Shown: one piece after another, positions 2,763-51,900 of the stretch
How positions within the stretch are numbered: position 1 is the stretch's first letter
Layout of the letters: every line of letters begins with the position of its first letter
Origin: Candidatus Wolfebacteria bacterium RIFOXYD12_FULL_48_21
GTDB taxonomy: Bacteria > Patescibacteriota > Minisyncoccia > UBA6257 > UBA9933
DNA: 64,000 nt
Direction: 5' to 3'
NCBI GenBank assembly: GCA_001793945.1
Contig: MGIW01000003.1
Location: forward strand, 129,630-193,629
Notes under the pieces: generated by a model
Told to the model about the DNA's origin: nothing
The model's input: the letters and a program-made list of their open reading frames with translations, nothing else
The model's database searches: none
Translations under genes and position numbers: made by a program

Positions 2763-3046
2763 AGGGAAGTTATGTCATTCCGTAACTGAGCTTGTCGAAG
2801 TGATACGGAATCTCGTTGATCAAATACGAGATCCTGAAACAAGTTCAGGATGACATTCAATACCGAAGCGTCCAACATGTACGCCTTGCGAAGGCGTACA
2901 TATGGTTCAAATTCTATTACATATTGCCTTCGGCAAGCGCCGGTAGTGGATTCCCGCCGGAGTTTACCCCGTACTGCGATACGGGGCCCGAAGTTCGGGA
3001 ATGACAAGAGAGGAGCCGGTATGACAATATACACGAGACGCGTCTT
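2763..3046. repeat. Cluster of palindromic hairpin (MITE/REP-like) elements separating the two ComEC ORFs
   Basis: Contains gtcattccgtaactgagcttgtcgaagtgatacggaatc and ggatgacattc/ggaatgacaag modules shared with dozens of other intergenic loci. Confidence 0.6.
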
Positions 3047-4486: not shown

Positions 4487-4747
4487 ATTAGATTTGTGAC
4501 ATGGTTAATGTTGCAAGGTGCATGGGAATGTTTATCATCCCCGGCGCTTTTATTTGTCATCCCGAACTTCGGGCCCCGTATCGCAGTGCGGGGTAAACTC
4601 CGGCGGGGATCCAGAGTTTTCTGCAGTGGCGGTGTTTGGATATTCAGACTCTGGATCCCGTGTCCCCGTATCGTGGTACGGGGCAGGCTGCGCACGGGAT
4701 GACAATACGAAGAGGAGTGACGATTTGCGCAGGGATGGAACAATTGC
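4487..4747. repeat. Hairpin repeat cluster (module ctggatcccgtgtccccgtatcgtggtacggggcaggctgcgcacgggatgacaat)
   Basis: This module recurs almost verbatim at 17570-17640 (reverse orientation), 35015-35075 and 47170-47230. Confidence 0.65.
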
Positions 4748-7965: not shown

Positions 7966-8252
7966 AGTTCGCTTATATTAGTAGATTATGGGGCTGTTGT
8001 CAAACGCACTCTGTCATTCCGAGCGCGGGTCCCGTATCAAGTACGGGATAAACTCCGGCGGGAATCCAGTGTCTTTAATATAGGTCATCACTACTGCAGA
8101 AAACTCTGGATCCCGTGTCGGAGCACGGGATGACACTGCGGGGAGCGGTGGAAATGTGAGATTAGAGGTGTGAGATGTGAGGCGTGGGGATGATGATGCG
8201 AATAAAAACCCCTGCCGTTAAGCAGGGGGTGTATGCAAACAAACGAACAGAC

Positions 8253-25864: not shown

Positions 25865-26330
25865 CCCGAGTGCAACGCAGCGAAGCGGAGTGAAATCGAG
25901 GGATCTGATAGTAGCAAGCAGATTTCTCGACTCCTCCGTCGGCTGACGGATGCGCTCGGAATGACAGGGTGAGGTGGGATCCAGTTTTTTCTGCGGTAGC
26001 GGTGCCTTGGGTAATGGATACTGGATTCCCGCCTGCGCGGGAATGACAATGCAGGCGGAGAGGTGAGAGATTGGAGGGGGGGTGTCATCCCGAGTGCAAC
26101 GCAGCGGAGCGGAGTGGAATCGAGGGATCTGACTTTATACTACAGATTCCTCGGCACTTGAAGCGCAGAACCTTATGCACCTCGAGTACCCCCGGCACGC
26201 TACACACTCGTTTCACTCGTTAGCAACGCCGAGGGTCGGGCTCGAGATGACAATGCGGGGGAAAAATAACTGATGACAGGATGCGGGGGCAATACGAGGG
26301 TTTATTTTGCCGAATTTTTGTAGAACAGGT
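25865..26330. repeat. Hairpin repeat block (gtcatcccgagtgcaacgcagcgaagcggagtgaaatcgagggatctg... twice, ctggattcccgcctgcgcgggaatgacaatgc)
   Basis: Near-identical to 10290-10400 and 34840-34935. Confidence 0.65.
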
Positions 26331-26699: not shown

Positions 26700-27044
26700 G
26701 CCTATTTATTGGTTCGGCAGTTACCCCTGAGTTATCCACAACCAATTGGGGATAACTCGGCAATACCCCCCCCCGGGGGGGGGATGACTTATGACCGATA
26801 ACCAATAACTGATGACGGGATGCTTTATTCCCGCCTGCGCGGGAATGACACGCTCCCCGTATTGTCATCCCGTGCCACGACACGGGATCCAGTATTTTCT
26901 GCGGTAGTAACATATATAGATATTCAGACTCTGGATCCCGGCTTTCGCCGGGATGACAATACCGAGATGCGGGATGCTAACTGATGACCGATGACCGATA
27001 ACTAATAACGGGGGAGGGGCAGGATGGCGTAGCTCGGGTTCGGG
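26700..27044. repeat. Hairpin and low-complexity repeat block (ggattcccgcctgcgcgggaatgaca, ctggatcccggctttcgccgggatgacaat, TAACYRATAAC)
   Basis: Shared modules. Confidence 0.6.
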
Positions 27045-27482: not shown

Positions 27483-28459
27483 GGCATGGGGGGGGTAAAG
27501 TATGAGGTATGAGGTATGAGGTATACGGTATACGGTATGGGAGGGGGAGAGAGATTAGAAATTAGATGTTAGAGATGAGAGATTGGAGGGGGGGGAGGGG
27601 GGAGATGAGAGGCGAGAGGTGAGAGATAAGAGATGAGAGAAAGAGGGGAGACGCGATAATTCGGCAACATTATTGTTATCCACACTTGCGCTGTTTGCCG
27701 AATGTTTTGTATACTGTAGTCAGATATACATGGGTAGCACAATTCAATATCTAACACGGCTTTGATTCCCTCTTGCGTCGGAAAAAATAAGTCACACACA
27801 CTTTAGATTACGCAACTCTTTTGTCTTGGCGTAAGCCTGACTATTCTTATTCCGAGCCGTCATCTGACGGACGACGAATTAGGACCTCGCGGTAAAGCGA
27901 TGGGATTCCGGATCAAGTCCGGAATGACAGAGAGAGGAGGCTCGGGATGACATGCCGAGTTTCGTAATTTAAAAACTCACTTGAACCGCACATGACACTC
28001 TTGCGTTTGTCATCTCGCATATGTTCGCCTCTTTTGTCTTTTTCCAAAAAGACTTTTTGTCGTTTTAGTCTGCCGCCGACAAAGTCGCATATAATGGATT
28101 CCCGCCTTCGCGGGAATGACACAGAGAAGAATCGGAATGACAAGGGGCTAAGCTGTCATCCTGAACTTGTTTCAGGATCTCATGAGAAAGAAACGAGATT
28201 CCGAAACAAGTTCGGAATGACAGATAGTCGAGGACAGGCCCTCCTCCGCCGGTATGACAGAGAGAAAGATAGGAATGGCAGAGGGAAACAAATTTCATTT
28301 TTAAAAACAAACTTCACTAAAAAAATCTCCACCCCGCACATGCAATCAATTACCAAACTTAACCAAATGAAAAAGAACTGGATACCGGCCTCCGCCGGTA
28401 TGACACAGGGGGGGGGTCGCAAGAAGAAAAATGTAACGATGTCAGACATCGTTACATTG
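27483..28459. repeat. Long repeat-laden leader: purine-rich low-complexity tracts (27483-27660), hairpin modules (27900-28440) and a REP-like 29-bp palindrome (28430-28458) upstream of the giant surface protein gene
   Basis: gagataagagatgagag-type tracts plus ggattcccgccttcgcgggaatgaca and ctggataccggcctccgccggtatgaca modules. Confidence 0.55.
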
Positions 28460-31400
28460 ATGAAGCGCGGTTTCGTATTTTCGATGGTACTGATGATGGT
28501 ATTGTCGAATGTGTTTATGGCGAACGCCGCTACCTATACCTTTACCCAGACCAACTGGAGTGGGGGAGTTACCGCAAACAATGCCGTGCATGACACGGGC
28601 AACAATCAGGCACAGCAGAGCTGGCAGCAGTTTTCCACATCAACCGCATCGCTCGCGGTAGTAAACAGCGGAGCTGATGTGCAGATCGGCACTGCGGCAT
28701 CGTCGACCACACAGAGCGACGAGGGGAGTACCGTAACTGGATTCGCACTGGCGGGTGCTTCGAACTCGCAAACGAGCGTCAGTGGATCGGGAACCGGGGC
28801 AAACGTTCAACTTGCGACCGTCCCGGGGCAGTTCGGTTCCGGCGTCGACGGGGCAGTTACGATTTCAACATCGAAAAATATCAACACCGACACGATCGCC
28901 AGCGGCCGCACCTGCGCAGATGGAATTTCATATAACATTGTCGCGCTTACCGCTAATACTGCAACCCTTTCGGGTACCCCTCCGGCGGGATGTTTTGCGG
29001 CAGGCGACAAGGTGATGATTTTGAACGAGCAGGGCTACGGCACGAATGTGACCAATGTGGGTAATTATGAATTTTTGGATGTGCAATCCATTTCGGGCAA
29101 TGTTATTACCTTTACAGAAAGCAAGACTAAATATTATGGAAATGCGGAAGGCAATGATTTTGACTATACCGATTGGCAGCAAGTTTCGGCGGGAAACAGC
29201 CATACCTCGGCGGTAAAGACCGATGGGACGCTGTGGGCGTGGGGGAATAATAGCTACGGTCAGCTTGGACTTGGCAATACCACCAGTCAGACATCGCCAG
29301 TACAGGTGGGGACCGGCACGAACTGGCAGCAAGTTTCCGCGGGCACTTACCATACCATGGCGGTCACAACCGACGGAACGCTATGGGCGTGGGGATATAA
29401 TAGCAATGGACAGCTTGGTTTGGGAGACACGACCCAGCGCACTTCACCGACACAAGTTGGCACCGGCACCAACTGGGCGTCCGTGTCTGCGGGTGGGTTC
29501 CACGCCTTGGCGGTAAAGACCGATGGGACGCTGTGGGCGTGGGGGAATAATGGCTACGGGCGATTAGGAGATGGGACCACGACCCAGCGCACTTCACCGG
29601 TGCAGATCGGAACCGATACAACCTGGCAATCCGTTTCGACGGGAGATATTCACACCTTAGCGGTAAAGACCGATGGGACGCTGTGGGCGTGGGGGCATAA
29701 TGGCTTCGGCCAGCTTGGATTGGGAGACACGACCCAGCGCACTTCACCGGTGCAGATCGGAACCGATACAACCTGGCAATCCGTTTCGGCGGGTTCATCA
29801 CACACCATGGCGGTCAAGACCGGCGGCACCCTGTGGGCGTGGGGGTATAATGGTTTAGGGCAACTCGGCCTTGGCGATACCACCCAGCGGACATCGCCGG
29901 TGCAGGTGGGGACTGATACCGACTGGCAACAGGTATCGAGTGGAGGGGGTCATAACATGGCAGTTAAAGCGGGCGTGGTGCTGGGGACGGGAAGAAATGA
30001 TGCATTTCAGCTTGGGATAACCTATAACCTAAATAGACTGGTGTTTACGCAGTCTGCGCATCAAAAAATCGTATTGCAGCGCATACCCCAGTATACCAGC
30101 GTGGATATCACGGCGACCGGCACTATAACTGCCAGCCCATGGAATGGGGAAAGAGGTGGGGTGCTTGCGTTTTATGCGAGCGGAAATGTGAATGTGCAAC
30201 TTGGAGGAAGTATCAATGTCGTAGGAAAGGGGTATCGATCTGGCAATGGAAGCAACTATGATATATATGAGGGCCTATATGATTATGGGTATGCAGGAGA
30301 GTCATATAATGACACCTTTGGTGAAGGCTATGGGGGTGGCGATGGGTATTGCTCTGAAGTTGGGGGGTGTGCAGATGGGCCCGGTGGAGGAGTCCATACG
30401 GGTGTTTATGGAGGCGCTGCACTTTCCAAGATATTTATGGGTGCTGGCGGAGGAGAGGGTGGCGGATCGCTCGGAGCTGGAGGTGGCATAGTATATATTT
30501 CATCCGATAGCTTGAGTTTAAGTGGTTCGATTTCAGTTAATGGCGGAGGTGGAGATGCGAACGGAGGTGGAGCTGGCGGATCTGCGTATCTTATCGGCGG
30601 GTCGCTTACTGTTGGTACAAATGTTCTTACTTCTACGGGAGGTACTTCTACTTCACCAAATGCAAATGGTGGGATTGGAAGAATTAAGCTTAGCTCAAGC
30701 AGCATTTCAGGAACGACTAACCCAGCTGCGGAGACTTCCGCTCTTCCAACAATATACTATACCTCCGGGGCATATATCTCGGGCGCGATGGACCTTGGTA
30801 ATGTAGGTGGATATACGACGCTTAACTACAGCGCTTCGACAACCGCTCAGACTGTGGTGACTATTGATGTGCGCGCAGGCAACACGGCCACGCCGGATGG
30901 CACTTGGACCGCGTGGACGACCGGCGTTTCGAGTGGCGGAGATATTTCTGCGCTCGGGGCAAACCGTTATTTCCAATATCGGGCGAATTTAGCGACGAGC
31001 GATAATACGCAAACGCCTGCCTTGCACGATGTTTCGGTAGGCTACAGCATTTACGCGACAGACCAGACGCTCACTTCATCGAAGTACGACACAAGCAGCG
31101 CAGACAATGCGATGGGATCCATTGCATGGGATGAGGATGCTTCATTGCCGGCCGGGACGACCGTGACGGTTTCCTTGCGCACCGCGGCAACGGAAGTGGC
31201 TCTTACCGATGCAACATGGTACGCATTCACAAACGCATCCGACGATTGTGCGAAGGTAGATACGACTGTCACCTGTCCGTCAGCCGCGCTTGCCTCTGCT
31301 TCGGCATCGCTCGCCGACAATATTGATGACCAATGGTATCAATATAAGGTGTCGGTGACTTCGACCGGCGTAAACACGCCGACCATCCCGGAGGTGCGCG

Positions 31401-34400
31401 TGCAATATGTGGTAAATGCACCGCCAGAGCTCTCGGCGGTGACCGCAACGCAAATAGCGACATCGAGCGATGCCAACTGGGGCAAGATACAGATAAACTA
31501 TTCAGTGCGCGATATCGACAGTGAAACCGGATCTATTACCCCGGGATATGTAACGCCGTTGTTCGAGTACAATATCGGCGGTGGCTGGGTCGCCATCGAC
31601 GAGGCCAACCTTTCCGCAAATGCGCTCGACAACAAAATAGTTACACAGATAGGCTACACCGCATACAGTGCCACATGGGATGTGCAAACCGCCATTCCGG
31701 CGCAATATTTCGCATCCGCGCAGGTGCGCGTAACCGTCGACGACAACGAACCTGCAAACAATACCGCTCAGGCGACTGCGGCAGAATTCGTGCTCGACAC
31801 AACAGCACCAACCGTTTCGGGAACCATCAATGGCACTTCAAATGAATTGACCTACTCTGTTTCCGACGACCAAAATGTTTCCTATCGTCTTTCAAACAAT
31901 AGCGACGGTTCCTATGATAGCGTAAACGCCGCTTCCGGTTCGTGGGTCGCCGCCGGGGCACCGTCGGCAAGCGCGACCACCACATGGGAACTTGCAGGGG
32001 CACCGAGCAATCAGATCGCATATCTTGAGGGCCGCGATGTGTACGGCAACACGGCATCGACTACTATCATCGGCCCTTCAGCGCCTACCTACTTCGATCT
32101 GAAGGATGCTTCGAATGTGCTTATCGATAACTACCAGATATTCCTTTCATGGAAAGTATACACGGCGACCACATCTGCGTCATTCAACCGATATGAGTTG
32201 TACCGTTCGACCGACGGATATACCTACGGGTTGCGGAGCACCATCACCGATTCAGCGACCAATTACTATACGAACACCGGACTCGCCTCTTCGACCACCT
32301 ACTACTATAAGCTGTTGGCCGTCGACAGTGACGGGGATGTTTCGCCCTATTCCACCGTCCTTAGTCATCAACCAAGCGGACAGGGAGGAACCGACTCTAC
32401 TTCGCCGACCATCTCACTTGTAACGGCTACCGATACGCAATCGACCTATGCGAAGATAACATTCACCACAAATGAACTCGCCTTTGGTACGGTTGAATAT
32501 CATGCGGAAGGAGGCTCGCCGTATGCGCTATCCGAAACCAAGGATACCATTGCAACCGCCCACACGATTGTACTTACCGATCTGACGCCGAATACTACCT
32601 ATACATATCGTGTGCAGGCGACCGATATTGCCGGAAATGAAACAACTGACGAAAGCCTTGGCGCAGGATATACATTTACAACCCGCGGGGGCCCGATCAT
32701 TACCGATGTCACCGCCATTCTTGCCGATGACCGCAATGCGACCGTCGCGTGGAATACAAATGTTGATTCCAATTCGACCTTGGTTTATGCCGAAAATGCA
32801 GTAACACTGACTAACGGCGTAGGCACTACCGCCGTGCAAGACACTTCGTTTGCCGGAGGCGCAGGGCCGCTGTATCAGCACCGTATCACACTGACCAGTC
32901 TTACGCCGCGCACGACATACTATTACTATGTACAGTCGACCGACATTGATGGCAATACGGGTGTAGATAAGAACGGCCTGAATTATTACACCTTTACCAC
33001 ATCGTACGATACCAAGGCACCGACTGTTTCCAATATTACCACCCCGGTGATCACCGAAACCGCCGTGGTTGTACTGTGGAAAACGGATGAACTTTCTGAC
33101 TCACAGGTATCTTATGGCACCGAATCGGGTACCTATACCGAGACCACAACACTCGACACCAATATGTCGATCGTTCATGCGGTAACCTTAACCGGTCTTA
33201 CCGCCGGGACCGACTACTACTATGTAGTCAAATCGAACGACCCTGCAGGCAATGCAACGACTTCGCCTGAACAGAGCGTGACTTCCGCTGATGCGCAAGA
33301 AATATTGATCGTTACCATCGGAGGGGGAGGCGCCGGCAAGACCGATAATCCGCCACCAGATGTGAAGGACACGGCCCCGGCCGCCATCAGCAACATCAAG
33401 ATCGTGAATACGACCGCATTTGGCGCGACGCTTTCCTTTGAAACGAATGAGCCTACTGTGATCGGACTGCGTTATGGCCAAACCACCGCGTATGACCGCG
33501 CGGAGGCAAGTATCGATTGGAAACTGTCCCATGAGATCAAGCTCAGCGGCTTGCGCTTGGGGACCGATTATCACTTCCAGATCAAGGCGATCGACAAGGG
33601 CGGTAACGAAGCATTTTCCGATGACACAACCTTCACGACGAAGTTCATAGCGGAAGCAAGCGAAAGTGCGCGGACGATCGAAAATATCCAGCAGTATGAG
33701 CAGGAGATCGAAGATTCGCTCGCATCCATTTTGCCGAGCATCCTTCCTCCGTTCGTTGAAGATGCACGCGTAACCGACATAACAGAAAGCGCAGCTACCA
33801 TCAATTGGAGAACAAACATCAATTCGTATGCGACCGTTTCGTATGCGACCGAAGAAGAGTATTTGGCTGCAACCACCACCAGGACCGTATACACGGGAGA
33901 GGTTTCCGATATATCCGCAAAGACCCGCGAGCACTCGCTGATATTGATCGGGCTTAAACCGAACACGACCTATCACTTTAAGGCAAAGTCGTTCTCTGTG
34001 CCGCAAGTAGTTGGCGAAGGTCGCGATATGACCTTTATCACAAAGGCACCGGCCGTACAGGCGAGTGTGATCGATGTGAAGACCTCATCGTTCCGCGCCG
34101 CGTGGACAACCGATGTGGCCGCAAGCTCTATCGTGGAATACAAGAACTTGACCACGGGAGTCATCGAGCGCATCATCAACGAACCGTTGGTTACCTACCA
34201 CGATATTCTCGTTGATAATCTTCGCCCGGGAACCCGGTATGAAGTGAAGGTACTCGGGTACAGCGCATCGGGTAACCTGCTTTCCTCGGGAACAGCCATG
34301 AATGTGCTGACTTCTACCGATATTGCGGCACCGAAGATTGGCAACTTCAAGGTTGACGGCGCATTAGTACCGGGTCGCACAGACCGCATCCAGACCATCG

Positions 34401-34711
34401 TGTCATGGACGACCGATGAGCCGGGAACCGGCATCGTAGAATATCAGGAGGGTGCGGGCAGCGTTGCCGATGGGTTTGCCAATAAGGTAACCATCACCGA
34501 CAGCTATGTCACCAACCATGTGGTCATCCTTGCCAACCTGAAACCGGGAACCATTTACCAGTTCAAGATCACATCGGCAGACCAAGCAGGCAACACCGCC
34601 AGCTTCGGCCCGCGCACGATCATCACCCCGCAAAAGGGTGAGTCGATCTTCGATGTCATCTTTAAGAACTTTGAAGATACCTTTAAGTTCTTAAGAGGGG
34701 CGGGGCAGTAA
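28460..34711 (+). CDS. Giant secreted/surface protein (~2080 aa): signal peptide, ~7 RCC1 repeats, a Gly-rich region, then many FN3/Ig-like (purple-acid-phosphatase-N-like) repeats
   Basis: Repeated DGTLWAWGNNxYGQLGLGDTTQRTSPVQ units, a GGGxGG-rich stretch at ~30280-30700, and repeated ~90-aa beta-sandwich units with Y..Y..V.A.D..GN motifs. The start was chosen at MKRGFVFSMVLMMVLSNVFMANA rather than the repeat-derived upstream extension of ORF 27992..34711. Confidence 0.55.
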   Translation: MKRGFVFSMVLMMVLSNVFMANAATYTFTQTNWSGGVTANNAVHDTGNNQAQQSWQQFSTSTASLAVVNSGADVQIGTAASSTTQSDEGSTVTGFALAGASNSQTSVSGSGTGANVQLATVPGQFGSGVDGAVTISTSKNINTDTIASGRTCADGISYNIVALTANTATLSGTPPAGCFAAGDKVMILNEQGYGTNVTNVGNYEFLDVQSISGNVITFTESKTKYYGNAEGNDFDYTDWQQVSAGNSHTSAVKTDGTLWAWGNNSYGQLGLGNTTSQTSPVQVGTGTNWQQVSAGTYHTMAVTTDGTLWAWGYNSNGQLGLGDTTQRTSPTQVGTGTNWASVSAGGFHALAVKTDGTLWAWGNNGYGRLGDGTTTQRTSPVQIGTDTTWQSVSTGDIHTLAVKTDGTLWAWGHNGFGQLGLGDTTQRTSPVQIGTDTTWQSVSAGSSHTMAVKTGGTLWAWGYNGLGQLGLGDTTQRTSPVQVGTDTDWQQVSSGGGHNMAVKAGVVLGTGRNDAFQLGITYNLNRLVFTQSAHQKIVLQRIPQYTSVDITATGTITASPWNGERGGVLAFYASGNVNVQLGGSINVVGKGYRSGNGSNYDIYEGLYDYGYAGESYNDTFGEGYGGGDGYCSEVGGCADGPGGGVHTGVYGGAALSKIFMGAGGGEGGGSLGAGGGIVYISSDSLSLSGSISVNGGGGDANGGGAGGSAYLIGGSLTVGTNVLTSTGGTSTSPNANGGIGRIKLSSSSISGTTNPAAETSALPTIYYTSGAYISGAMDLGNVGGYTTLNYSASTTAQTVVTIDVRAGNTATPDGTWTAWTTGVSSGGDISALGANRYFQYRANLATSDNTQTPALHDVSVGYSIYATDQTLTSSKYDTSSADNAMGSIAWDEDASLPAGTTVTVSLRTAATEVALTDATWYAFTNASDDCAKVDTTVTCPSAALASASASLADNIDDQWYQYKVSVTSTGVNTPTIPEVRVQYVVNAPPELSAVTATQIATSSDANWGKIQINYSVRDIDSETGSITPGYVTPLFEYNIGGGWVAIDEANLSANALDNKIVTQIGYTAYSATWDVQTAIPAQYFASAQVRVTVDDNEPANNTAQATAAEFVLDTTAPTVSGTINGTSNELTYSVSDDQNVSYRLSNNSDGSYDSVNAASGSWVAAGAPSASATTTWELAGAPSNQIAYLEGRDVYGNTASTTIIGPSAPTYFDLKDASNVLIDNYQIFLSWKVYTATTSASFNRYELYRSTDGYTYGLRSTITDSATNYYTNTGLASSTTYYYKLLAVDSDGDVSPYSTVLSHQPSGQGGTDSTSPTISLVTATDTQSTYAKITFTTNELAFGTVEYHAEGGSPYALSETKDTIATAHTIVLTDLTPNTTYTYRVQATDIAGNETTDESLGAGYTFTTRGGPIITDVTAILADDRNATVAWNTNVDSNSTLVYAENAVTLTNGVGTTAVQDTSFAGGAGPLYQHRITLTSLTPRTTYYYYVQSTDIDGNTGVDKNGLNYYTFTTSYDTKAPTVSNITTPVITETAVVVLWKTDELSDSQVSYGTESGTYTETTTLDTNMSIVHAVTLTGLTAGTDYYYVVKSNDPAGNATTSPEQSVTSADAQEILIVTIGGGGAGKTDNPPPDVKDTAPAAISNIKIVNTTAFGATLSFETNEPTVIGLRYGQTTAYDRAEASIDWKLSHEIKLSGLRLGTDYHFQIKAIDKGGNEAFSDDTTFTTKFIAEASESARTIENIQQYEQEIEDSLASILPSILPPFVEDARVTDITESAATINWRTNINSYATVSYATEEEYLAATTTRTVYTGEVSDISAKTREHSLILIGLKPNTTYHFKAKSFSVPQVVGEGRDMTFITKAPAVQASVIDVKTSSFRAAWTTDVAASSIVEYKNLTTGVIERIINEPLVTYHDILVDNLRPGTRYEVKVLGYSASGNLLSSGTAMNVLTSTDIAAPKIGNFKVDGALVPGRTDRIQTIVSWTTDEPGTGIVEYQEGAGSVADGFANKVTITDSYVTNHVVILANLKPGTIYQFKITSADQAGNTASFGPRTIITPQKGESIFDVIFKNFEDTFKFLRGAGQ

Positions 34712-35090
34712 GATGAGAGGGTAGAGATGGGAGATTAGAGGTTAGAAAAAGGAGCGCCGTCAGGCGCTCCTTTTTGTATCCTACATGCTATTTGCTACAT
34801 GTTACACCCTTGGCGATTCCTTTTTTGTTGGGGGTATTGTCATCCCGAGTGCAACGCAGCGAAGCAGCGTGAAATCGAGGGATCCGCAGTAAAAACAGAT
34901 TCCTCGTCCGCCGGCTGGCGGATCGGAATGACAATGCGGGGGGGGGAGGTGTGTCACCCCGGCGGATACCGGGGTCCAGGTTTTTGCAGTGGTGCCGCAT
35001 TGTGCTGAAAACTCTGGATCCCGTGTCCCCGTATCGTGGTACGGGGCAGGCTGCGCACGGGATGACAATGCGGGGGGAAGGGCAATGCGT
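34712..35090. repeat. Hairpin repeat block (purine tract, gtcatcccgagtgcaacgcagcgaagcagcgtgaaatcgagggatccg..., ctggatcccgtgtccccgtatcgtggtacggggcaggctgcgcacgggatgacaatgcgggg)
   Basis: Shared modules with 4650-4715 and 10290-10400. Confidence 0.65.
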
Positions 35091-35606
35091 CTATTTCACT
35101 TCAATGGTGCGTTCGTTGATGGTGTCTCCATACGACAGGGTAACCGTTATTTTTTCTCGGGGGAGCGCCTTTGTTATGCGCTCGGGCCATTCTACTAAAA
35201 TGATATTCTGTGGGTCGCTTAGCAACTTCTTGAACCCGAGCTCTTTCATTTCACTTGCATCGCCGATGCGATAACAATCGAAGTGGTGCGCTTTTTGAAA
35301 TGCGGGCTCACTGGATACCGGCCTCCGCCGGTATGACAATGCGCGCGGGGATGACAGAGGGAGATGCGGGAATGCCACTGCGGGCAACGCGTAAGAACGC
35401 AGTAAGGTAAATGTTGGGCTCACGATTTTTTTCTTTACGCCAAGCTCGCGCAATAGGCCTTGAATAAATGTTGTCTTTCCGGCGCCTAGATCGCCTTTAA
35501 AAACAACGACAAAAGCGTGCTTCCCCGATTTTGTCCGTGCGACTTCTTCAGCAAACAGCTTTGCTATCTTTTTTGTTTCAGTAGATGAGGTTGTTTTATA
35601 CTGCAT
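35091..35606 (-). CDS. tsaE: tRNA threonylcarbamoyladenosine biosynthesis ATPase TsaE (YjeE), carrying an in-frame repeat-element insertion
   Basis: P-loop GDLGAGKTTFIQGL, then SPTFTL ... HHFDCYRI. The normal ~11-aa linker between these motifs is expanded to ~38 aa, encoded by the hairpin repeat at 35305-35395. Confidence 0.6.
   Translation of the reverse strand: MQYKTTSSTETKKIAKLFAEEVARTKSGKHAFVVVFKGDLGAGKTTFIQGLLRELGVKKKIVSPTFTLLRSYALPAVAFPHLPLSSPRALSYRRRPVSSEPAFQKAHHFDCYRIGDASEMKELGFKKLLSDPQNIILVEWPERITKALPREKITVTLSYGDTINERTIEVK
35305..35395. mobile_element. MITE/REP-like hairpin element (ctggataccggcctccgccggtatgacaatgcgcgcggggatgacag...) inserted in-frame inside tsaE
   Basis: The same module occurs intergenically at 28384-28410, 36045-36075, 51075-51110 and 60650-60680. 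Here it is translated without a stop (…LRSYALPAVAFPHLPLSSPRALSYRRRPVSSEPAFQKA…). Confidence 0.55.
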
Positions 35607-35752
35607 TGATTTTATGATGCAAAAAAGCATAGGAAAATGCAACTGGATACCAGCCGGATCCGCCGGCTGGCGGACTCGTGCCACGATACGGGACCCGCGT
35701 TCGGAATGACAATGCATTTACTGTGTCACCCCGGCGGAGGCCGGGGTCCATA

Positions 35753-36034
35753 CTATAAGTCATCATACAAATCCTTCCATTCAGGATTTTCTTTTTCTAT
35801 TAATTTCAACTTCCAATTCCTGTGCCACTCTTTTAGGCATTTCTCTCTTGCAATCGCGCTACGCACATCAGGCGTCGCCTCAAAATACACCAATCTGTCT
35901 ATGCTATATATTTTTGTAAATCCTTCTATCAGCTTTTCTTTATGTTCGTATACTCTTCTTTTTAGATCATTTGTTACTCCGATATATAATGTTCCATTTC
36001 GTTTATTGGCGAGAATATATATGTAATACTGCAT
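35753..36034 (-). CDS. GIY-YIG nuclease-superfamily small protein (UPF0213-like)
   Basis: YYIYILANKRNGTLYIGVTNDLKRRVYEHK is a canonical GIY-YIG motif. The start was chosen at MQYYIYIL, after the repeat-derived N-terminal extension. Confidence 0.55.
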   Translation of the reverse strand: MQYYIYILANKRNGTLYIGVTNDLKRRVYEHKEKLIEGFTKIYSIDRLVYFEATPDVRSAIAREKCLKEWHRNWKLKLIEKENPEWKDLYDDL

Positions 36035-36174
36035 TTCTTTATTATACTGGATACCGGCCTGCGCCGGTATGACAGTACGGGGAGGTGTGACACCCCGGCG
36101 CGTTCGGAATGACAATGCGGGGCCTCGCACAAACAAAAACAACCCCGGAGGGTTGTTTTTGTTTGAAGGATATT

Positions 36175-41379: not shown

Positions 41380-41621
41380 AATGTTTCTACGGATAAAATA
41401 GGCGCATTATCATCCCGTGCTCAAGCCTGTCCGCCAGCCGGCGGAACACGGGATCCAGAGTTTTTACATTGGCGATACTTAGGCATTCAGACCCTGGATT
41501 CCCGTTTTCCCTCCCAAGGTGGGCAGGCACGGGAATGACAATGCGGGGAGATAACCGATGACCAATAACTAATGACCGATAACGGGATGCAATGGAATGA
41601 AAATGCGGGGATGCGGGGGGG
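41380..41621. repeat. Hairpin repeat block (…gtcatcccgtgctcaagcctgtccgccagccggcggaacacgggatccag…, ctggattcccgttttccc…cacgggaatgacaatgcgggg, TAACYRATAAC)
   Basis: Shared modules. Confidence 0.6.
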
Positions 41622-43113: not shown

Positions 43114-43275
43114 TCCGAGCGCAGCGGAGCGGAGTCGAGGAATCTGTTGCTACCAACAACTTTAGATTTCTCAACAGGATAGGGGACGGGGATCCAGGTT
43201 TTCTATAGCGGTGTCCGCTTTGCGCAAAAGACTCTGGATTCCGGCCTCCGCCGGAATGACAATACGGTATGGAAG
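43114..43275. repeat. Hairpin repeat block (gtcattccgagcgcagcggagcggagtcgaggaatctg…, ctggattccggcctccgccggaatgacaat)
   Basis: Shared modules. Confidence 0.6.
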
Positions 43276-45131: not shown

Positions 45132-45185
45132 AGTGATGATATTACCCTTATTAAACGCCAAACCAACCAAAATTGCAAAACGCCA

Positions 45186-45214
45186 AATGTAACGATGTCT
45201 GACATCGTTACATT
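45186..45214. repeat. 29-bp REP-like palindrome AATGTAACGATGTCTGACATCGTTACATT immediately upstream of the RAYT gene
   Basis: Inverted repeat read directly from the sequence. Confidence 0.7.
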
Positions 45215-45233
45215 TGCGTGCTATTATATAAAC

Positions 45234-45914
45234 ATGTCTGAACTATACCATGCTCTTAACCGAGGAGTTGATAAGAAGAAAATATTTCTGGACAAACAGG
45301 ACCACTTGCGATTTATTCATGACCTTTATGAATTCAATGACGAAGCTCCGGCGAGCAATAATTGCCACGGCTTTCGCCGGATGCCGGTTAAATGTAACGA
45401 TGTCGGACGTCGTTATATTAAACGATCCCGATTGGTTACCATCCATGCATTCTGTCTCATGCCAAACCATTATCATCTGCTTTTAAGCCCGCGCGTCGAG
45501 AATGGTATCCCTTTATTTATGAAGAAGTTGAATGGCGGATATGCAAAGTATTTCAACGAACGATACGATCGAAAAGGGACATTATTTGAGGGAAGGTATA
45601 AGTCGGTGCCGGTAACGGCGCAATCACACTTTATTCACTTGCCCTATTATATTCACTTGAACCCGTTGGATATGTTTGATCACGGATGGCGGGATCGGGT
45701 AGTTCATAGCCATGCCGATACCATAAAATATTTGGAAAATTATCGATGGTCGAGCCATTTGGACTATTTGGGGAAAAAGAATTTCCCCTCGGTTACACAA
45801 CGAGAGTTCCTGCTCGAATTTTTTGGAGGACAGGAGGGATACGCGCAAGCGTTAGCCCAATGGGTCAAAGATATTAGTATCAACGAGATACATGACATCA
45901 TCTTAGAAAAGTGA
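45234..45914 (+). CDS. IS200/IS605-family Y1 (HuH) transposase of the REP-associated tyrosine transposase (RAYT) type, interrupted in-frame by a copy of its own palindrome (45391-45419)
   Basis: HuH motif CLMPNHYHLLL and Tyr motif GTLFEGRYKS. The palindrome is translated as …VKCNDVGRRYI… without a stop. Confidence 0.5.
   Translation: MSELYHALNRGVDKKKIFLDKQDHLRFIHDLYEFNDEAPASNNCHGFRRMPVKCNDVGRRYIKRSRLVTIHAFCLMPNHYHLLLSPRVENGIPLFMKKLNGGYAKYFNERYDRKGTLFEGRYKSVPVTAQSHFIHLPYYIHLNPLDMFDHGWRDRVVHSHADTIKYLENYRWSSHLDYLGKKNFPSVTQREFLLEFFGGQEGYAQALAQWVKDISINEIHDIILEK
45391..45419. repeat. Imperfect copy of the 29-bp palindrome inside the RAYT coding sequence
   Basis: aatgtaacgatgtcggacgtcgttatatt. Confidence 0.6.
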
Positions 45915-45928
45915 CTGCAGTAAACGCA

Positions 45929-45956
45929 AATGTAACGATGTCAGACGTCGTTACAT
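45929..45956. repeat. REP-like palindrome copy immediately downstream of the RAYT gene
   Basis: aatgtaacgatgtcagacgtcgttacat. Confidence 0.65.
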
Positions 45957-45970
45957 CGCAAGGTGTGCAT

Positions 45971-51589: not shown

Positions 51590-51900
51590 AATAAGGGGTA
51601 ATTTTAAATTTATAATTTATAATTTTTAATGAGGATGCGGGGGGGATAATTTTAAATTTATAATTTTTAATGAGGATGCGGGATTCCCGCCTTCGCGGGA
51701 ATGATATACTCCCCGTATTGTCATCCCGTGCCACGACACGGGATCCAGTGTTTTCCGCGGTAGTAACATATGGATGTTCAGACTCTGGATACCGACCGGA
51801 GTTTATCCCGTACTTGATACGGGACCCACATTCGGTATGACAAGGCGGGGGAAAATAACCTATAACCGATAACCTATAACGGGATGCGGGAGGATACTAA
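51590..51900. repeat. Hairpin repeat block (ggattcccgccttcgcgggaatgata, tgtcatcccgtgccacgacacgggatccag, TAACYRATAAC)
   Basis: Shared modules. 51700-51760 is near-identical to 26855-26905. Confidence 0.6.

What the first reader, a model, noticed from the sequence alone, without database searches (positions are those of the whole stretch)
35280..35400. Hairpin repeat element inserted in-frame inside the essential gene tsaE (RPE-like behaviour)
TsaE motifs SPTFTL and HHFDCYRI are normally ~11 aa apart. Here they are separated by ~38 aa, encoded by a copy of the ctggataccggcctccgccggtatgacaatgcgcgcggggatgaca module. The module is translated without stop codons. In-frame, stop-free insertion of palindromic elements into conserved proteins is the hallmark of Rickettsia palindromic elements. 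It is not expected for ordinary REPs.
Basis: partly seen in the sequence, partly recalled or inferred. Interest (0 to 1): 0.75.

Follow-up and report, generated by a model that had tools for sequence, protein, structure and literature searches.

The report
Mobile hairpin repeat translated inside tsaE
A short hairpin repeat that litters the spaces between genes of this Wolfebacteria-like (CPR) genome has also landed in frame inside a surface loop of the conserved tRNA-modification gene tsaE, which stays intact and under selection, so "junk" repeats are being written into a core protein much as happens in Rickettsia.

Summary
tsaE (35091-35606, minus strand, 171 aa) has 24 more residues than its 147-aa orthologues. 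They lie between SPTFTL and HHFDCYR. Part of the DNA encoding them (35311-35338) matches an intergenic repeat at 28378 at 28 of 28 bases. It matches the hairpin upstream of the neighbouring GIY-YIG gene at 27 of 28.

- **Not an artefact or pseudogene.** The exact protein is on 20 public contigs. Two diverged alleles keep the insert. Core dN/dS is 0.10.
- **Structure.** AlphaFold2 places the insert as a disordered loop at the tip of a beta-hairpin on an otherwise normal TsaE fold.
- **Relatives.** Related Wolfebacteria carry different hairpin modules at the same codon, in the same orientation and frame. Most orthologues have none. The site therefore undergoes recurrent insertion or turnover.
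- **The repeat family.** It has conserved flanks (CTGGAT...ATGACAATGCG) and a stem that covaries. It occurs in many phyla. It also sits in frame in Tgt, TruB, IleRS and a DNA methylase elsewhere.
- **Possible mobiliser.** Inverted copies flank small UPF0213-type GIY-YIG nuclease genes, about 25-fold above background. I infer, without proof, that this nuclease moves the repeat.

It behaves like a Rickettsia palindromic element (RPE) but is not an RPE. I rate it a new variant of a known kind.

The parts
35091..35606 (-). tsaE coding sequence, 171 aa. The true start is MQYKTTS. The public 208-aa annotation starts further upstream, inside a repeat.
   Evidence: Pfam TsaE 4e-32 and TIGR00150 102.6 bits against a cutoff of 60.1, both in two stretches. 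The orthologue alignment fixes the start. The AF2 model has pLDDT 86.6 and TM 0.74-0.80 to 1HTW. dN/dS is 0.05-0.10 against relatives.
35307..35384 (-). Inserted segment, residues 75-100 (PAVAFPHLPLSSPRALSYRRRPVSSE). 24 residues are net extra relative to insert-free orthologues.
   Evidence: Alignment A2. The HI0065 alignment is broken between query residues 74 and 105. pLDDT is below 50 for residues 80-94 and there is no secondary structure between strands 69-73 and 105-110.
35311..35338 (+). Core hairpin module CTGGAT-ACCGGC-CTCC-GCCGGT-ATGACA, with an 8-bp stem and a 4-nt loop. On the tsaE strand it reads TGTCAT...ATCCAG and encodes LSYRRRPVSS.
   Evidence: It is identical at 28/28 bases to 28378-28405 and at 27/28 to 36047-36074. 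The stem appears in both the minimum-energy and centroid folds. Stem covariation across copies is shown.
35339..35385 (+). Tail of the insert: the canonical ATGACAATGCG tail followed by two degenerate GGATGACA-like units (GGGGATGACAGAGGGAGATGCG and GGAATGCCACTGCGGGC).
   Evidence: Direct reading. Direct-repeat family D3 aligns 47 nt at 83% with 36046-36092. The motif family occurs 28 times against 2.2 expected.
35301..35307 (+). First copy of the 7-nt direct repeat TGCGGGC that brackets the insert. The second copy is at 35379-35385, giving a 78-nt period of 26 codons.
   Evidence: 13 copies of this 7-mer in 64 kb. Whether it is a target-site duplication is unresolved.
35379..35385 (+). Second copy of the 7-nt direct repeat TGCGGGC.
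28378..28405 (+). Identical intergenic sibling of the tsaE hairpin, upstream of the giant RCC1-repeat gene.
   Evidence: 0 mismatches.
35753..36034 (-). Neighbouring small GIY-YIG nuclease gene (93 aa, UPF0213/YhbQ-like). It is the candidate cognate nuclease of the hairpin family.
   Evidence: Pfam GIY-YIG 1.8e-16. Full-length match to UPF0213 BH0048, PDB 1ZG2. Among 80 homologue loci, strict hairpins lie within 150 nt upstream in 33 of 74 and downstream in 37 of 75, against 0.019 per 150 nt in the background.
36047..36074 (+). Hairpin 13 nt upstream of the GIY-YIG start codon. It differs from the tsaE hairpin at 1 of 28 bases.
   Evidence: D3.
35724..35750 (+). Inverted hairpin (TGTCACCCCGGCGGAGGCCGGGGTCCA) 3 nt downstream of the GIY-YIG stop codon. 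Together with 36047-36074 it forms terminal inverted hairpins around the gene.
   Evidence: Inverted repeat I1. The same downstream hairpin sits next to the orthologous GIY-YIG gene in L007.

Best explanation
A member of a mobile, structure-defined hairpin repeat family inserted into tsaE at the tip of the beta-hairpin that follows the SPTFT motif. The insert is one complete 28-nt hairpin module plus degenerate tail units, about 72-78 nt in all.

The family has conserved flanks, CTGGAT on one side and ATGACAATGCGGGG on the other, around a GC-rich stem that covaries. It is abundant between the genes of this Wolfebacteria-like CPR genome.

The length is a multiple of three and the module has no stop codon in that frame. 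The insert is therefore read through and adds 24 residues. These form a disordered, Arg/Pro/Ser-rich surface loop that leaves the P-loop, SPTFT, HxDxYR and EW motifs and the fold intact. TsaE stays functional and the insert is carried as a tolerated passenger.

The same loop holds different modules of the family in related lineages. The site is therefore repeatedly hit, or its content is repeatedly replaced.

The likeliest source of mobility is the small UPF0213-type GIY-YIG nuclease. Its gene, 150 nt from tsaE, is flanked by inverted copies of the hairpin. The arrangement is analogous to a REP-associated tyrosine transposase (RAYT) flanked by REPs, with head-to-head hairpin doublets and single hairpins as non-autonomous derivatives.

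- **Shown:** identity to the repeat, in-frame status, intact fold, purifying selection, independent assemblies, different modules in relatives, and the GIY-YIG/hairpin association.
- **Inferred:** that the insert is translated, that it is neutral, that it lies away from the TsaD/TsaB interface, and that the GIY-YIG protein is the mobilising enzyme.
For: - **Repeat identity.** 28/28 and 27/28 matches to intergenic copies against 0 expected. A 47-nt alignment to the hairpin beside the GIY-YIG gene.
- **Family reality and structure.** 17 modules found by flanks alone against 1.1 expected. 15 of 17 have perfect 7-bp stems. Three Watson-Crick pair types occur at stem position 2 and two at position 5.
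- **Insertion, not a native loop.** 23 of the 31 closest orthologues lack it.
- **Gene alive.** dN/dS is 0.10 at dS 0.54 against P0001, which shares the insert. TIGR00150 scores above its cutoff. The core is modelled with high confidence and matches 1HTW, 5NP9 and 6N9A_E, while the insert is disordered.
- **Not an artefact.** The exact protein is on 20 contigs. P0001 and P0124 are diverged alleles with the same insert.
- **Recurrence.** P0002, P0004, P0007 and P0008 carry different modules. Each matches a different intergenic subfamily of this window. P0012, which has an insert, nests within an insert-free clade with bootstrap support of 84.
- **Same behaviour elsewhere.** In-frame copies occur in Tgt, an N6_N4 methylase, TruB and IleRS in other phyla.
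- **Nuclease link.** One search gives the 25-fold enrichment and the fixed inverted orientation. add supporting loci. Head-to-head doublets with a conserved spacer, in the position the gene occupies, are shown.
Against: - **Translation of the insert is not demonstrated.**
- **Neutrality is questionable.** The insert differs at 1 of 78 nt between the window and P0001, against 56 of 438 in the rest of the gene. It is invariant in P0124. That could mean constraint or homogenisation. However, divergence along this locus is patchy and the neighbouring intergenic repeats are equally conserved.
- **Independence of the insertions is not proven.** All identifiable tsaE inserts share position, orientation and frame. 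Random independent hits would not be expected to give this. Deep nodes of the tree are weakly supported.
- **The GIY-YIG link is only a statistical association.** The gene could instead home into pre-existing hairpins. Only about 45-50% of homologue loci showed a strict hairpin on a given side, and most hairpin loci in other genomes have no GIY-YIG gene within 8 kb.
- **The 100-nt RNA fold is not unusually stable.** Its z-score against shuffles is -0.7.
Confidence: 0.8

Rival explanations
1. Exaptation. The inserted segment is kept because it does something. It might act as an Arg-rich loop that touches tRNA, TsaB or TsaD, or as a nucleic-acid hairpin that regulates tsaE mRNA or serves as a protein-binding site in the DNA.
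For: The insert is far more conserved than synonymous sites in the flanking sequence: 1 of 78 nt differ, against pS 0.39. It is identical in a third allele. All lineages use the same hydrophilic frame (L-S-[FY]..RRR..S), although 5 of the 6 frames are open.
Against: Most orthologues, including close ones (P0005 and P0006 at 78-81% identity), do without any insert. Insert sequence and length differ freely between lineages, from 9 to 30 extra residues. The loop is predicted to be disordered. The nearby intergenic repeats are just as conserved, so the conservation is not specific to the coding copy.
Confidence: 0.12
2. One ancient insertion with later turnover, rather than recurrent independent insertions. 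A single event occurred in an ancestor. The hairpin part was then overwritten by gene conversion or nested insertions from other genomic copies, and the insert was lost precisely in many lineages.
For: All inserts share the same codon position, orientation and frame. Similar L-P-A junction codons and GCC(C)GCA near-repeats bracket the inserts of the window, P0007 and P0012. The window insert looks like three nested or truncated module starts. P0002 and P0003 share a decayed TGTCATCCCGA start.
Against: Insert-free proteins keep exactly the spacing and residue pattern of distant outgroups. This model therefore requires many precise losses. P0012 nests inside an insert-free clade with bootstrap 84. 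The shared L-P-A codons are also what the module's own conserved end (CTCCCCGCA) encodes, so they do not prove common descent.
Confidence: 0.3
3. The insert is not translated. It would be skipped by ribosomal bypassing, as for T4 gene 60 or the mitochondrial 'byp' GC-hairpin elements, using the matching CCC-GCA codons at both ends. Alternatively it would be removed at the RNA level.
For: Identical CCC GCA codons sit at both borders, 78 nt apart, with a stable GC hairpin between them. The known byp elements are GC-rich mobile hairpins inside genes (my own recollection of Lang et al. 2014, not checked here).
Against: All eight insert-bearing relatives have insert lengths that are multiples of three and no stop codons (27-90 nt). 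No split tsaE genes appeared among 120 listed homologues. A bypassed element would not need to stay in frame. There is no stop codon after the putative take-off codon.
Confidence: 0.03
4. The copy is a pseudogene or an assembly chimera: repeat-induced misassembly, or a dead gene.
For: Short GC-rich repeats do cause assembly errors. The public annotation of this gene has a wrong start, 208 aa long and beginning inside a repeat.
Against: The exact 171-aa protein is on 20 contigs from JGI and ENA and in two NCBI records. The same insert is found on an independent groundwater contig whose tsaE has dS 0.54 and dN/dS 0.10 relative to the window. All catalytic motifs are intact.
Confidence: 0.02

Closest known systems
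Rickettsia palindromic elements (RPE-1 to RPE-10; Ogata et al. 2000, as summarised in PMC2229807 and PMC10969869)
   Same: A palindromic repeat that is mostly intergenic is also found fused in frame, without stop codons, inside conserved housekeeping genes. It sits at a position compatible with the fold, and the host gene stays functional. For RPE this was shown experimentally for gmk.
   Different: RPEs are 105-150 bp long stem-loops and are specific to Rickettsia. Nearly half of the copies of some RPE families lie in ORFs. Here the unit is a 22-28 nt hairpin with conserved flanks and the insert is 72-78 nt. The family occurs in many phyla. It is the only copy of the family found inside a gene in this window. 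No RPE model matched. The recurrent use of one loop with different modules is not a described RPE feature, as far as I could find.
REP / REPIN elements with their RAYT transposase (PMC3116915, PMC3337134, PMC3733652)
   Same: Short GC-rich imperfect palindromes at high copy number. There are head-to-head doublets with a spacer, like REPINs. A single small nuclease gene is flanked by inverted copies of the hairpin.
   Different: The flanked gene is a GIY-YIG (UPF0213) nuclease, not an HUH/Y1 transposase. There is no GTAG or CGTC tag. REPs are by definition extragenic. The window also has a true RAYT-like gene (45234-45914), but it is flanked by a different hairpin family.
Bacterial MITEs with intragenic in-frame copies (ERIC/IRU, the Correia 107-bp form, YPAL, Coxiella QMITE; PMC2229807, PMC5896051)
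   Same: Non-autonomous repeats with open reading frames that occasionally fuse in frame to host genes.
   Different: Those elements are 100-200 bp or longer, with terminal inverted repeats and usually a TA or other target duplication. They are lineage-restricted, and most of their fusions are at gene ends or in hypothetical genes. Here a single hairpin sits in the middle of an essential enzyme. A target duplication is only suggested, by the 7-nt TGCGGGC repeat.
Wolbachia palindromic element (WPE, TIGR02697)
   Same: A translated window repeat (..NWIPASAGMTQGG..) gave a weak match to the C-terminal half of the WPE domain model: E 0.0065, 16.5 bits.
   Different: The match is below the curated cutoff of 27.55. 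Eight other translated copies and the TsaE insert gave no hit. Kinship is unproven.

Membership tests
TsaE (t6A ATPase subunit, TIGR00150 / PF02367) | The family model scores above its curated cutoff. The P-loop GxxGxGKT, SPT(F/Y)T, HxDxYR and EW motifs are present. | tested here: met
   TIGR00150 scores 102.6 bits against a cutoff of 60.1, and Pfam gives 4e-32. GDLGAGKT, SPTFT, HHFDCYR and VEWPE are seen in the alignment.
TsaE (t6A ATPase subunit, TIGR00150 / PF02367) | TsaE fold. | tested here: met
   The AF2 model has pLDDT 86.6. Foldseek top hits are 1HTW, 5NP9, 6N9A_E and 6S84_E, with E 2e-12 to 7e-10 and TM 0.63-0.80.
TsaE (t6A ATPase subunit, TIGR00150 / PF02367) | ATPase activity, TsaBD binding and support of t6A synthesis with the insert present. 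| not testable with these tools
   Only indirect evidence is available: dN/dS of 0.10 in alleles that carry the insert.
Rickettsia palindromic elements (RPE) | Sequence homology to an RPE family, or to its encoded peptide. | tested here: not met
   No RPE model hit at E up to 10 for the TsaE insert, for translated window repeats, or for the IleRS insert of a Rickettsia endosymbiont. Caveat: I did not verify which RPE models the NCBIfam copy holds. It does hold the sister WPE model.
Rickettsia palindromic elements (RPE) | A 105-150 bp element forming one long stem-loop with terminal inverted repeats (PMC2229807). | tested here: not met
   The insert is 72-78 nt. The only strong pairing is an 8-bp stem with a 4-nt loop.
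Rickettsia palindromic elements (RPE) | In-frame, stop-free insertion in conserved protein genes at a structurally permissive site. | tested here: met
   The same holds for Tgt, TruB, IleRS and a methylase in other genomes.
REP/REPIN-RAYT system | Short palindromic repeat at high copy number, with doublets in inverted orientation. | tested here: met
   17 simple modules, and 29 strict modules when compound ones are included, in 64 kb. At least 8 head-to-head doublets have a conserved spacer of about 42 nt.
REP/REPIN-RAYT system | The cognate gene flanked by the repeats is a RAYT (Y1/HUH transposase). The repeat carries a GTAG or CGTC tag. | tested here: not met
   The flanked gene is GIY-YIG. 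The window's RAYT-like gene is flanked by TAACGATGTCnGACrTCGTTA hairpins instead. The flanks here are CTGGAT and ATGACAATGCG.
MITE | Terminal inverted repeats plus a target-site duplication. | tested here: inconclusive
   The doublets have inverted hairpin ends. The tsaE copy is a single hairpin bracketed by the 7-nt direct repeat TGCGGGC. That 7-mer overlaps the module's own tail motif AATGCGGG, so it may not be a duplication.
Wolbachia palindromic element (WPE, TIGR02697) | The domain model scores above its cutoff. | tested here: not met
   The best score is 16.5 bits against a cutoff of 27.55, for one translated intergenic copy. There was no hit for the others.
UPF0213 / YhbQ-like GIY-YIG nucleases (the neighbouring gene) | A GIY-YIG domain about 90 aa long, standing alone. 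| tested here: met
   Pfam GIY-YIG 1.8e-16. Full-length match to UPF0213 BH0048, PDB 1ZG2, at E 6.6e-4, and a weaker match to EF2693, PDB 1YWL.
UPF0213 / YhbQ-like GIY-YIG nucleases (the neighbouring gene) | Nuclease activity on the hairpin or its flanks, that is, the gene is the mobilising enzyme. | not testable with these tools
   Only the association is shown: 33 of 74 and 37 of 75 loci, against a background of 0.019 per 150 nt, with a fixed inverted orientation.

The most novel reading that the evidence does not exclude
The CTGGAT-hairpin-ATGACAATGCG modules and the small UPF0213 GIY-YIG nuclease form a mobile system that spans many phyla. It would be analogous to REPIN/RAYT but built on a different nuclease fold. 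The gene flanked by inverted hairpins would be the autonomous form. Head-to-head doublets and single hairpins would be the non-autonomous forms.

This system can write itself in frame into core genes across bacteria: TsaE, Tgt, TruB and IleRS. The TsaE beta-hairpin tip would then be a sequence-specific target that is hit repeatedly in the same orientation, not merely a permissive loop.
Probability: 0.3. Interest if true: 0.8.

Novelty: new variant of a known kind. Interest (0 to 1): 0.62.

Why it matters
**Generality.** In-frame colonisation of essential genes by selfish palindromes is mostly cited as a Rickettsia curiosity. Here it occurs in a CPR/Patescibacteria genome with a much smaller repeat unit. 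The same hairpin is also embedded in tRNA-modification and aminoacylation enzymes of unrelated phyla. That points to a general, under-appreciated way for proteins to gain loops.

**Annotation.** These repeats are open in 5 of 6 frames. They create false N-terminal extensions, as in the public 208-aa TsaE, and false ORFs.

**A test system.** The one-loop hot spot, with different modules in sister lineages, offers a natural series of filled, empty and replaced sites. It can be used to study how such elements insert, turn over and decay.

**A possible function for an uncharacterised family.** If the GIY-YIG association reflects mobilisation, it would give a function to the widespread, uncharacterised UPF0213/YhbQ family. 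It would also define a second REPIN-like system.

Tried and rejected
- **Rfam.** A scan of the whole window at gathering thresholds found only three tRNAs. No described RNA family covers the repeats.
- **RPE and WPE models.** I scanned the insert, eight translated intergenic copies and the Rickettsia-endosymbiont IleRS insert. The only result was one sub-threshold WPE hit.
- **Literature.** Searches for the translated repeat peptides (IPAKAGIQ and similar) found 0 papers. Searches for GIY-YIG with RAYT, REPIN or REP, for GIY-YIG with YhbQ, COG2827 or UPF0213, and for GIY-YIG with MITE or hairpin found nothing relevant in the held library.
- **RNA stability.** The fold of 100 nt around the insert is not more stable than shuffles, with z = -0.7. 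I do not claim an unusual mRNA structure beyond the 8-bp stem.
- **More distant Patescibacteria TsaE.** I tested whether their longer loops come from dispersed repeats. The P0109 insert is a local tandem duplication with no other copy in 17 kb. The P0105 insert contains a hairpin but has no other copy in its 7.4-kb contig. This remains unresolved.
- **Other gene-internal copies in the window.** Repeat k-mer islands overlaid on the ORF map show that the other strong islands lie between ORFs or at ORF ends. The exceptions are tsaE, the hairpin inside the RAYT-like gene, and a short low-complexity match in the giant ORF at 30017-30070.
- **The RAYT-like transposase as mobiliser.** I rejected this because the gene is flanked by a different hairpin family.
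- **The internal hairpin of the RAYT-like gene as a second insertion.** I rejected this because homologues have the same length and a variable loop at that position.
Full report
**1. What is at the coordinates**

The minus-strand ORF 35091-35606 encodes a 171-aa TsaE. Pfam TsaE gives E = 4e-32. The NCBIfam equivalog TIGR00150 scores 102.6 bits against a cutoff of 60.1. Both hits are split into two stretches.

The best named relatives are Candidatus Wolfebacteria (CPR/Patescibacteria). The locus shows the same gene order as in those genomes: EF-G, L13, S9, a variable gene, tsaE and a giant RCC1-repeat protein.

In an alignment of the 26 closest proteins, most are 147 aa and read SPTFTLLRSY-x-[IV]-[KR]-x-x-x-F-x-x-[VI]-HHFDCYR. 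The window protein has 24 additional residues there.

Across 120 homologues the modal spacing is the short one. Of the 31 closest homologues, 23 are insert-free.

H. influenzae HI0065 aligns to query residues 13-74 and 105-163, with only three of its own residues in between.

**2. The extra DNA is a copy of the intergenic repeat**

The 28-mer CTGGATACCGGCCTCCGCCGGTATGACA at 35311-35338 recurs exactly at 28378. It recurs with one mismatch at 36047 and with two at 43234, 51080 and 60653. No matches are expected in shuffles.

A 47-nt stretch aligns at 83% with 36046-36092. The tail motif GGATGACAATGCG occurs 28 times against 2.2 expected.

Read on the plus strand, the insert consists of:
- one complete module, CTGGAT-hairpin-ATGACAATGCG;
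- two degenerate GGATGACA-like tail units.

This matches the way modules pile up between genes.

Searching by flanks alone (TGGA-N18-TGAYA) finds 17 simple modules against 1.1 expected. Fifteen have perfect 7-bp stems. The stem varies by compensatory changes: C-G, T-A and A-T at one position, and G-C or C-G at another. The family is therefore defined by conserved flanks plus a maintained hairpin, not by stem sequence.

Including compound stems, I counted 29 strict modules in 64 kb. At least eight form head-to-head doublets with a conserved spacer of about 42 nt. Rfam has no family for them.

**3. It is real and the gene is alive**

The exact 171-aa protein is recorded on 20 contigs from JGI and ENA, the longest 893 kb. 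The 208-aa mis-started version is in two NCBI records.

An independent groundwater contig (L011, protein P0001) and another allele (P0124) carry the same insert while differing elsewhere.

Excluding the insert, window against P0001 gives dN 0.056 and dS 0.54, so dN/dS is 0.10. Comparisons with other relatives give 0.05-0.09.

AlphaFold2, run with the 27-sequence alignment, gives mean pLDDT 86.6 and pTM 0.82. Residues 69-73 and 105-110 form the two strands of a hairpin. Everything between them is coil, with pLDDT below 50 for residues 80-94. The model matches solved TsaE structures: 1HTW at TM 0.74/0.80 and rmsd 2.1 Å, and also 5NP9, 6N9A_E and 6S84_E.

In the T. maritima TsaBDE structure, TsaE contacts its partners in three ways (PMC6009658):
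- through helix alpha3;
- through the beta5-beta6 connection;
- through the loops at the C-terminal end of the parallel sheet, including SPT(F/Y)T, which dips into the TsaD active site.

The insert lies at the far end of the strand that leaves SPTFT. By topology it points away from that face. This is inference. I could not superpose coordinates.

**4. The loop is a recurrent landing site**

Eight of the 32 closest proteins have extra residues in this loop, and the DNA differs between them.

| Protein | Module in the loop |
|---|---|
| Window and P0001 | ACCGGC-stem module |
| P0004, P0008 | TTCCCGC-stem module (..LSFPRRRESS..) |
| P0007 | Compound module that matches window 2945-2997 |
| P0002 | TGTCATCCCGAG...CGAGGGATC type, which matches window 34834-34854 and others |
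| P0012 | Short hairpin with a different stem |
| P0003 | Decayed remnant |

A neighbour-joining tree of the insert-masked proteins gives the following:
- window, P0001 and P0002 group together with bootstrap 93, and P0003 joins them with 62;
- P0012 falls inside an insert-free clade with bootstrap 84;
- P0004, and the pair P0007 and P0008, fall elsewhere, with weak support.

Insert-free proteins keep the spacing and residue pattern of the outgroups. The ancestral state was therefore insert-free. There were either several gains, or one gain followed by replacement of the hairpin and several precise losses.

All identifiable inserts begin after the same SY-x codon. They have the same orientation (TGTCAT...ATCCAG on the coding strand) and use the same frame. 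Five of the six frames of the simple module are open, so chance does not explain this. The possible explanations are shared descent with turnover, site-specific targeting, or selection for the hydrophilic Arg-rich frame.

A 7-nt direct repeat, TGCGGGC, brackets the window insert at 35301-35307 and 35379-35385, 78 nt apart. Near-repeats bracket the inserts of P0007 and P0012. Because the 7-mer overlaps the module's own tail motif, I leave open whether it is a target duplication.

All eight inserts are multiples of three and stop-free, and no split tsaE genes were seen. This argues that the insert is translated rather than bypassed.

**5. An unexplained conservation**

Between the window and P0001 the insert differs at 1 of 78 nt. 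The rest of the gene differs at 56 of 438. Divergence along the locus is patchy, however. The intergenic repeat cluster 34813-35090 is also 97-100% identical. I therefore do not read this as selection on the coding copy specifically. Homogenisation, nucleotide-level constraint on the repeats in general, or a recombination tract are all possible.

**6. The repeat family outside this genome**

The listed hits include the following:
- Bacteroidota, Planctomycetota and Nitrospirota;
- Chloroflexota (Dehalococcoidia);
- alpha-, beta-, gamma- and deltaproteobacteria, including a Rickettsia endosymbiont with six copies in 8 kb;
- Patescibacteria;
- a Nanoarchaeota MAG.

Among 147 modules in those loci, I confirmed in-frame doublets inside real genes:

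| Gene | Locus and organism | Evidence |
|---|---|---|
| tRNA-guanine transglycosylase (Tgt) | L025, Parcubacteria | Pfam TGT split in two |
| N6_N4 DNA methylase | L032 | Pfam N6_N4_Mtase |
| TruB | L033 | Pfam TruB_N |
| Isoleucyl-tRNA synthetase (IleRS) | L062, Rickettsia endosymbiont | Pfam tRNA-synt_1 and Anticodon_1 |

These use other frames: VIPAKAGIQ, CHSREGGNP and LDSRLRGND.

None of these, nor the TsaE insert, matched RPE models. One translated window copy gave a sub-threshold WPE hit.

**7. A candidate mobilising gene**

The 93-aa GIY-YIG gene lies at 35753-36034, 150 nt from tsaE. It hits Pfam GIY-YIG at 1.8e-16 and resembles UPF0213 proteins BH0048 (1ZG2) and EF2693 (1YWL).

It is flanked by inverted hairpins, one 13 nt before its start codon and one 3 nt after its stop codon. 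The upstream one is the second-closest relative of the tsaE hairpin.

I then examined 80 metagenome loci chosen only by homology to this protein:
- A strict hairpin lies within 150 nt upstream in 33 of 74 loci and downstream in 37 of 75.
- The background more than 300 nt away is 0.019 per 150 nt.
- The orientation is nearly fixed: TGTCAT...ATCCAG, then the gene, then CTGGAT...ATGACA.

In the hairpin-selected genome loci, every close GIY-YIG homologue found lies 7-90 nt from a hairpin.

The gene occupies the position of the spacer in the head-to-head doublets. It is variably present between S9 and tsaE in relatives, where an NYN-domain gene or nothing takes its place.

I infer a REPIN/RAYT-like relationship with a GIY-YIG nuclease. 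The alternative, that the gene homes into pre-existing hairpins, is not excluded. I found no paper describing this association in the held library.

The window also encodes a RAYT-like Y1 transposase, but it is flanked by a different hairpin.

**8. Comparison with the known, and verdict**

Functionally this is what Ogata and colleagues described for RPEs: a selfish palindrome fused in frame into a conserved protein at a permissive surface site (PMC2229807, PMC10969869).

It is not an RPE by size, architecture, distribution or model match. It is not a classical REP either, because this copy is intragenic, there is no GTAG or CGTC tag, and the associated gene is not a RAYT.

Within this window, gene-internal copies are rare. 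Frequent CDS insertion is therefore not shown here.

I rate it a new variant of a known kind, of moderate to high interest. The new elements are:
- the CPR host;
- the very small unit;
- the hot-spot loop with different modules in sister lineages;
- the distribution across phyla;
- the GIY-YIG association.

Noticed in passing
window 35724-36074; loci L132-L211, L050, L024, L078, L083, L007: A small UPF0213-type GIY-YIG nuclease gene is flanked by inverted copies of the hairpin module, in the order TGTCAT..ATCCAG, gene, CTGGAT..ATGACA. In 80 loci picked by protein homology alone, hairpins within 150 nt are about 25-fold enriched over distal flanks. The arrangement looks like a REPIN/RAYT analogue built on a GIY-YIG nuclease.
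   Followed up: partly
window 45234-45914 (+), with hairpins at 45184-45216, 45926-45958 and about 45390-45420, and another copy at about 28430-28460: A RAYT-like Y1/IS200 transposase (Pfam Y1_Tnp 2.7e-10; best NCBIfam match REP_Tyr_transpos, below cutoff) is flanked by a second, unrelated hairpin family, AAATGTAACGATGTCnGACrTCGTTACAT. A near-copy of that hairpin lies inside its own coding sequence (residues 53-62, KCNDVGRRYI). Homologues have equal length and a variable loop there, so it is not a simple insertion.
   Followed up: partly
window 4590-4670, 8050-8125, 25975-26040, 26875-26950, 34962-35032, 41440-41512, 43175-43252, 51730-51803: Head-to-head doublets of hairpin modules are separated by a conserved spacer of about 42 nt (..GGGATCCAG-TGTTTTCTGCAGTGGT...TTCAGACT-CTGGATCC..). 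They are REPIN- or MITE-like non-autonomous units.
   Followed up: partly
L025 (Parcubacteria Tgt), L032 (N6_N4 methylase, Nanoarchaeota MAG), L033 (TruB), L062 (IleRS, Rickettsia endosymbiont of Polydrusus): The same hairpin family is embedded in frame, as doublets, in conserved genes of unrelated phyla.
   Followed up: partly
window 35607-35717, and 27992 to about 28440: Because the modules are open in 5 of 6 frames, ORFs run upstream through them. The public TsaE record is 208 aa and starts MHCHSERGS inside a repeat. The giant RCC1-repeat ORF (27992-34711) appears to gain about 150 spurious N-terminal residues (..MDSRLRGND.., ..WIPASAGMT..) before a signal-peptide-like MKRGFVFSMVLMMVL.
   Followed up: no
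window 34813-35458 compared with L011: The repeat-rich stretches, both the tsaE insert and the downstream intergenic cluster, are 97-100% identical between two genomes whose tsaE synonymous sites differ at pS 0.39. The 5' third of tsaE is much more diverged (18%) than the rest.
   Followed up: partly
TsaE homologues P0032-P0120; L212, L213: The same TsaE loop varies widely in length across Patescibacteria, with spacing from 13 to 46 residues. Some inserts look like translated repeats (for example HLRQSFGGQAS and FQIPRNKLQTNSKFQIP). One (P0109) is a local tandem duplication. No dispersed copies were found in the two contigs examined.
   Followed up: partly
interval between rpsI (S9) and tsaE: window 35607-36174; L001-L010: The spacer between S9 and tsaE holds different cargo in related genomes. 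It carries the GIY-YIG gene in the window, L005 and L007, an NYN-domain gene in L003, L006 and L010, and nothing or a small ORF in L001, L002 and L008.
   Followed up: no
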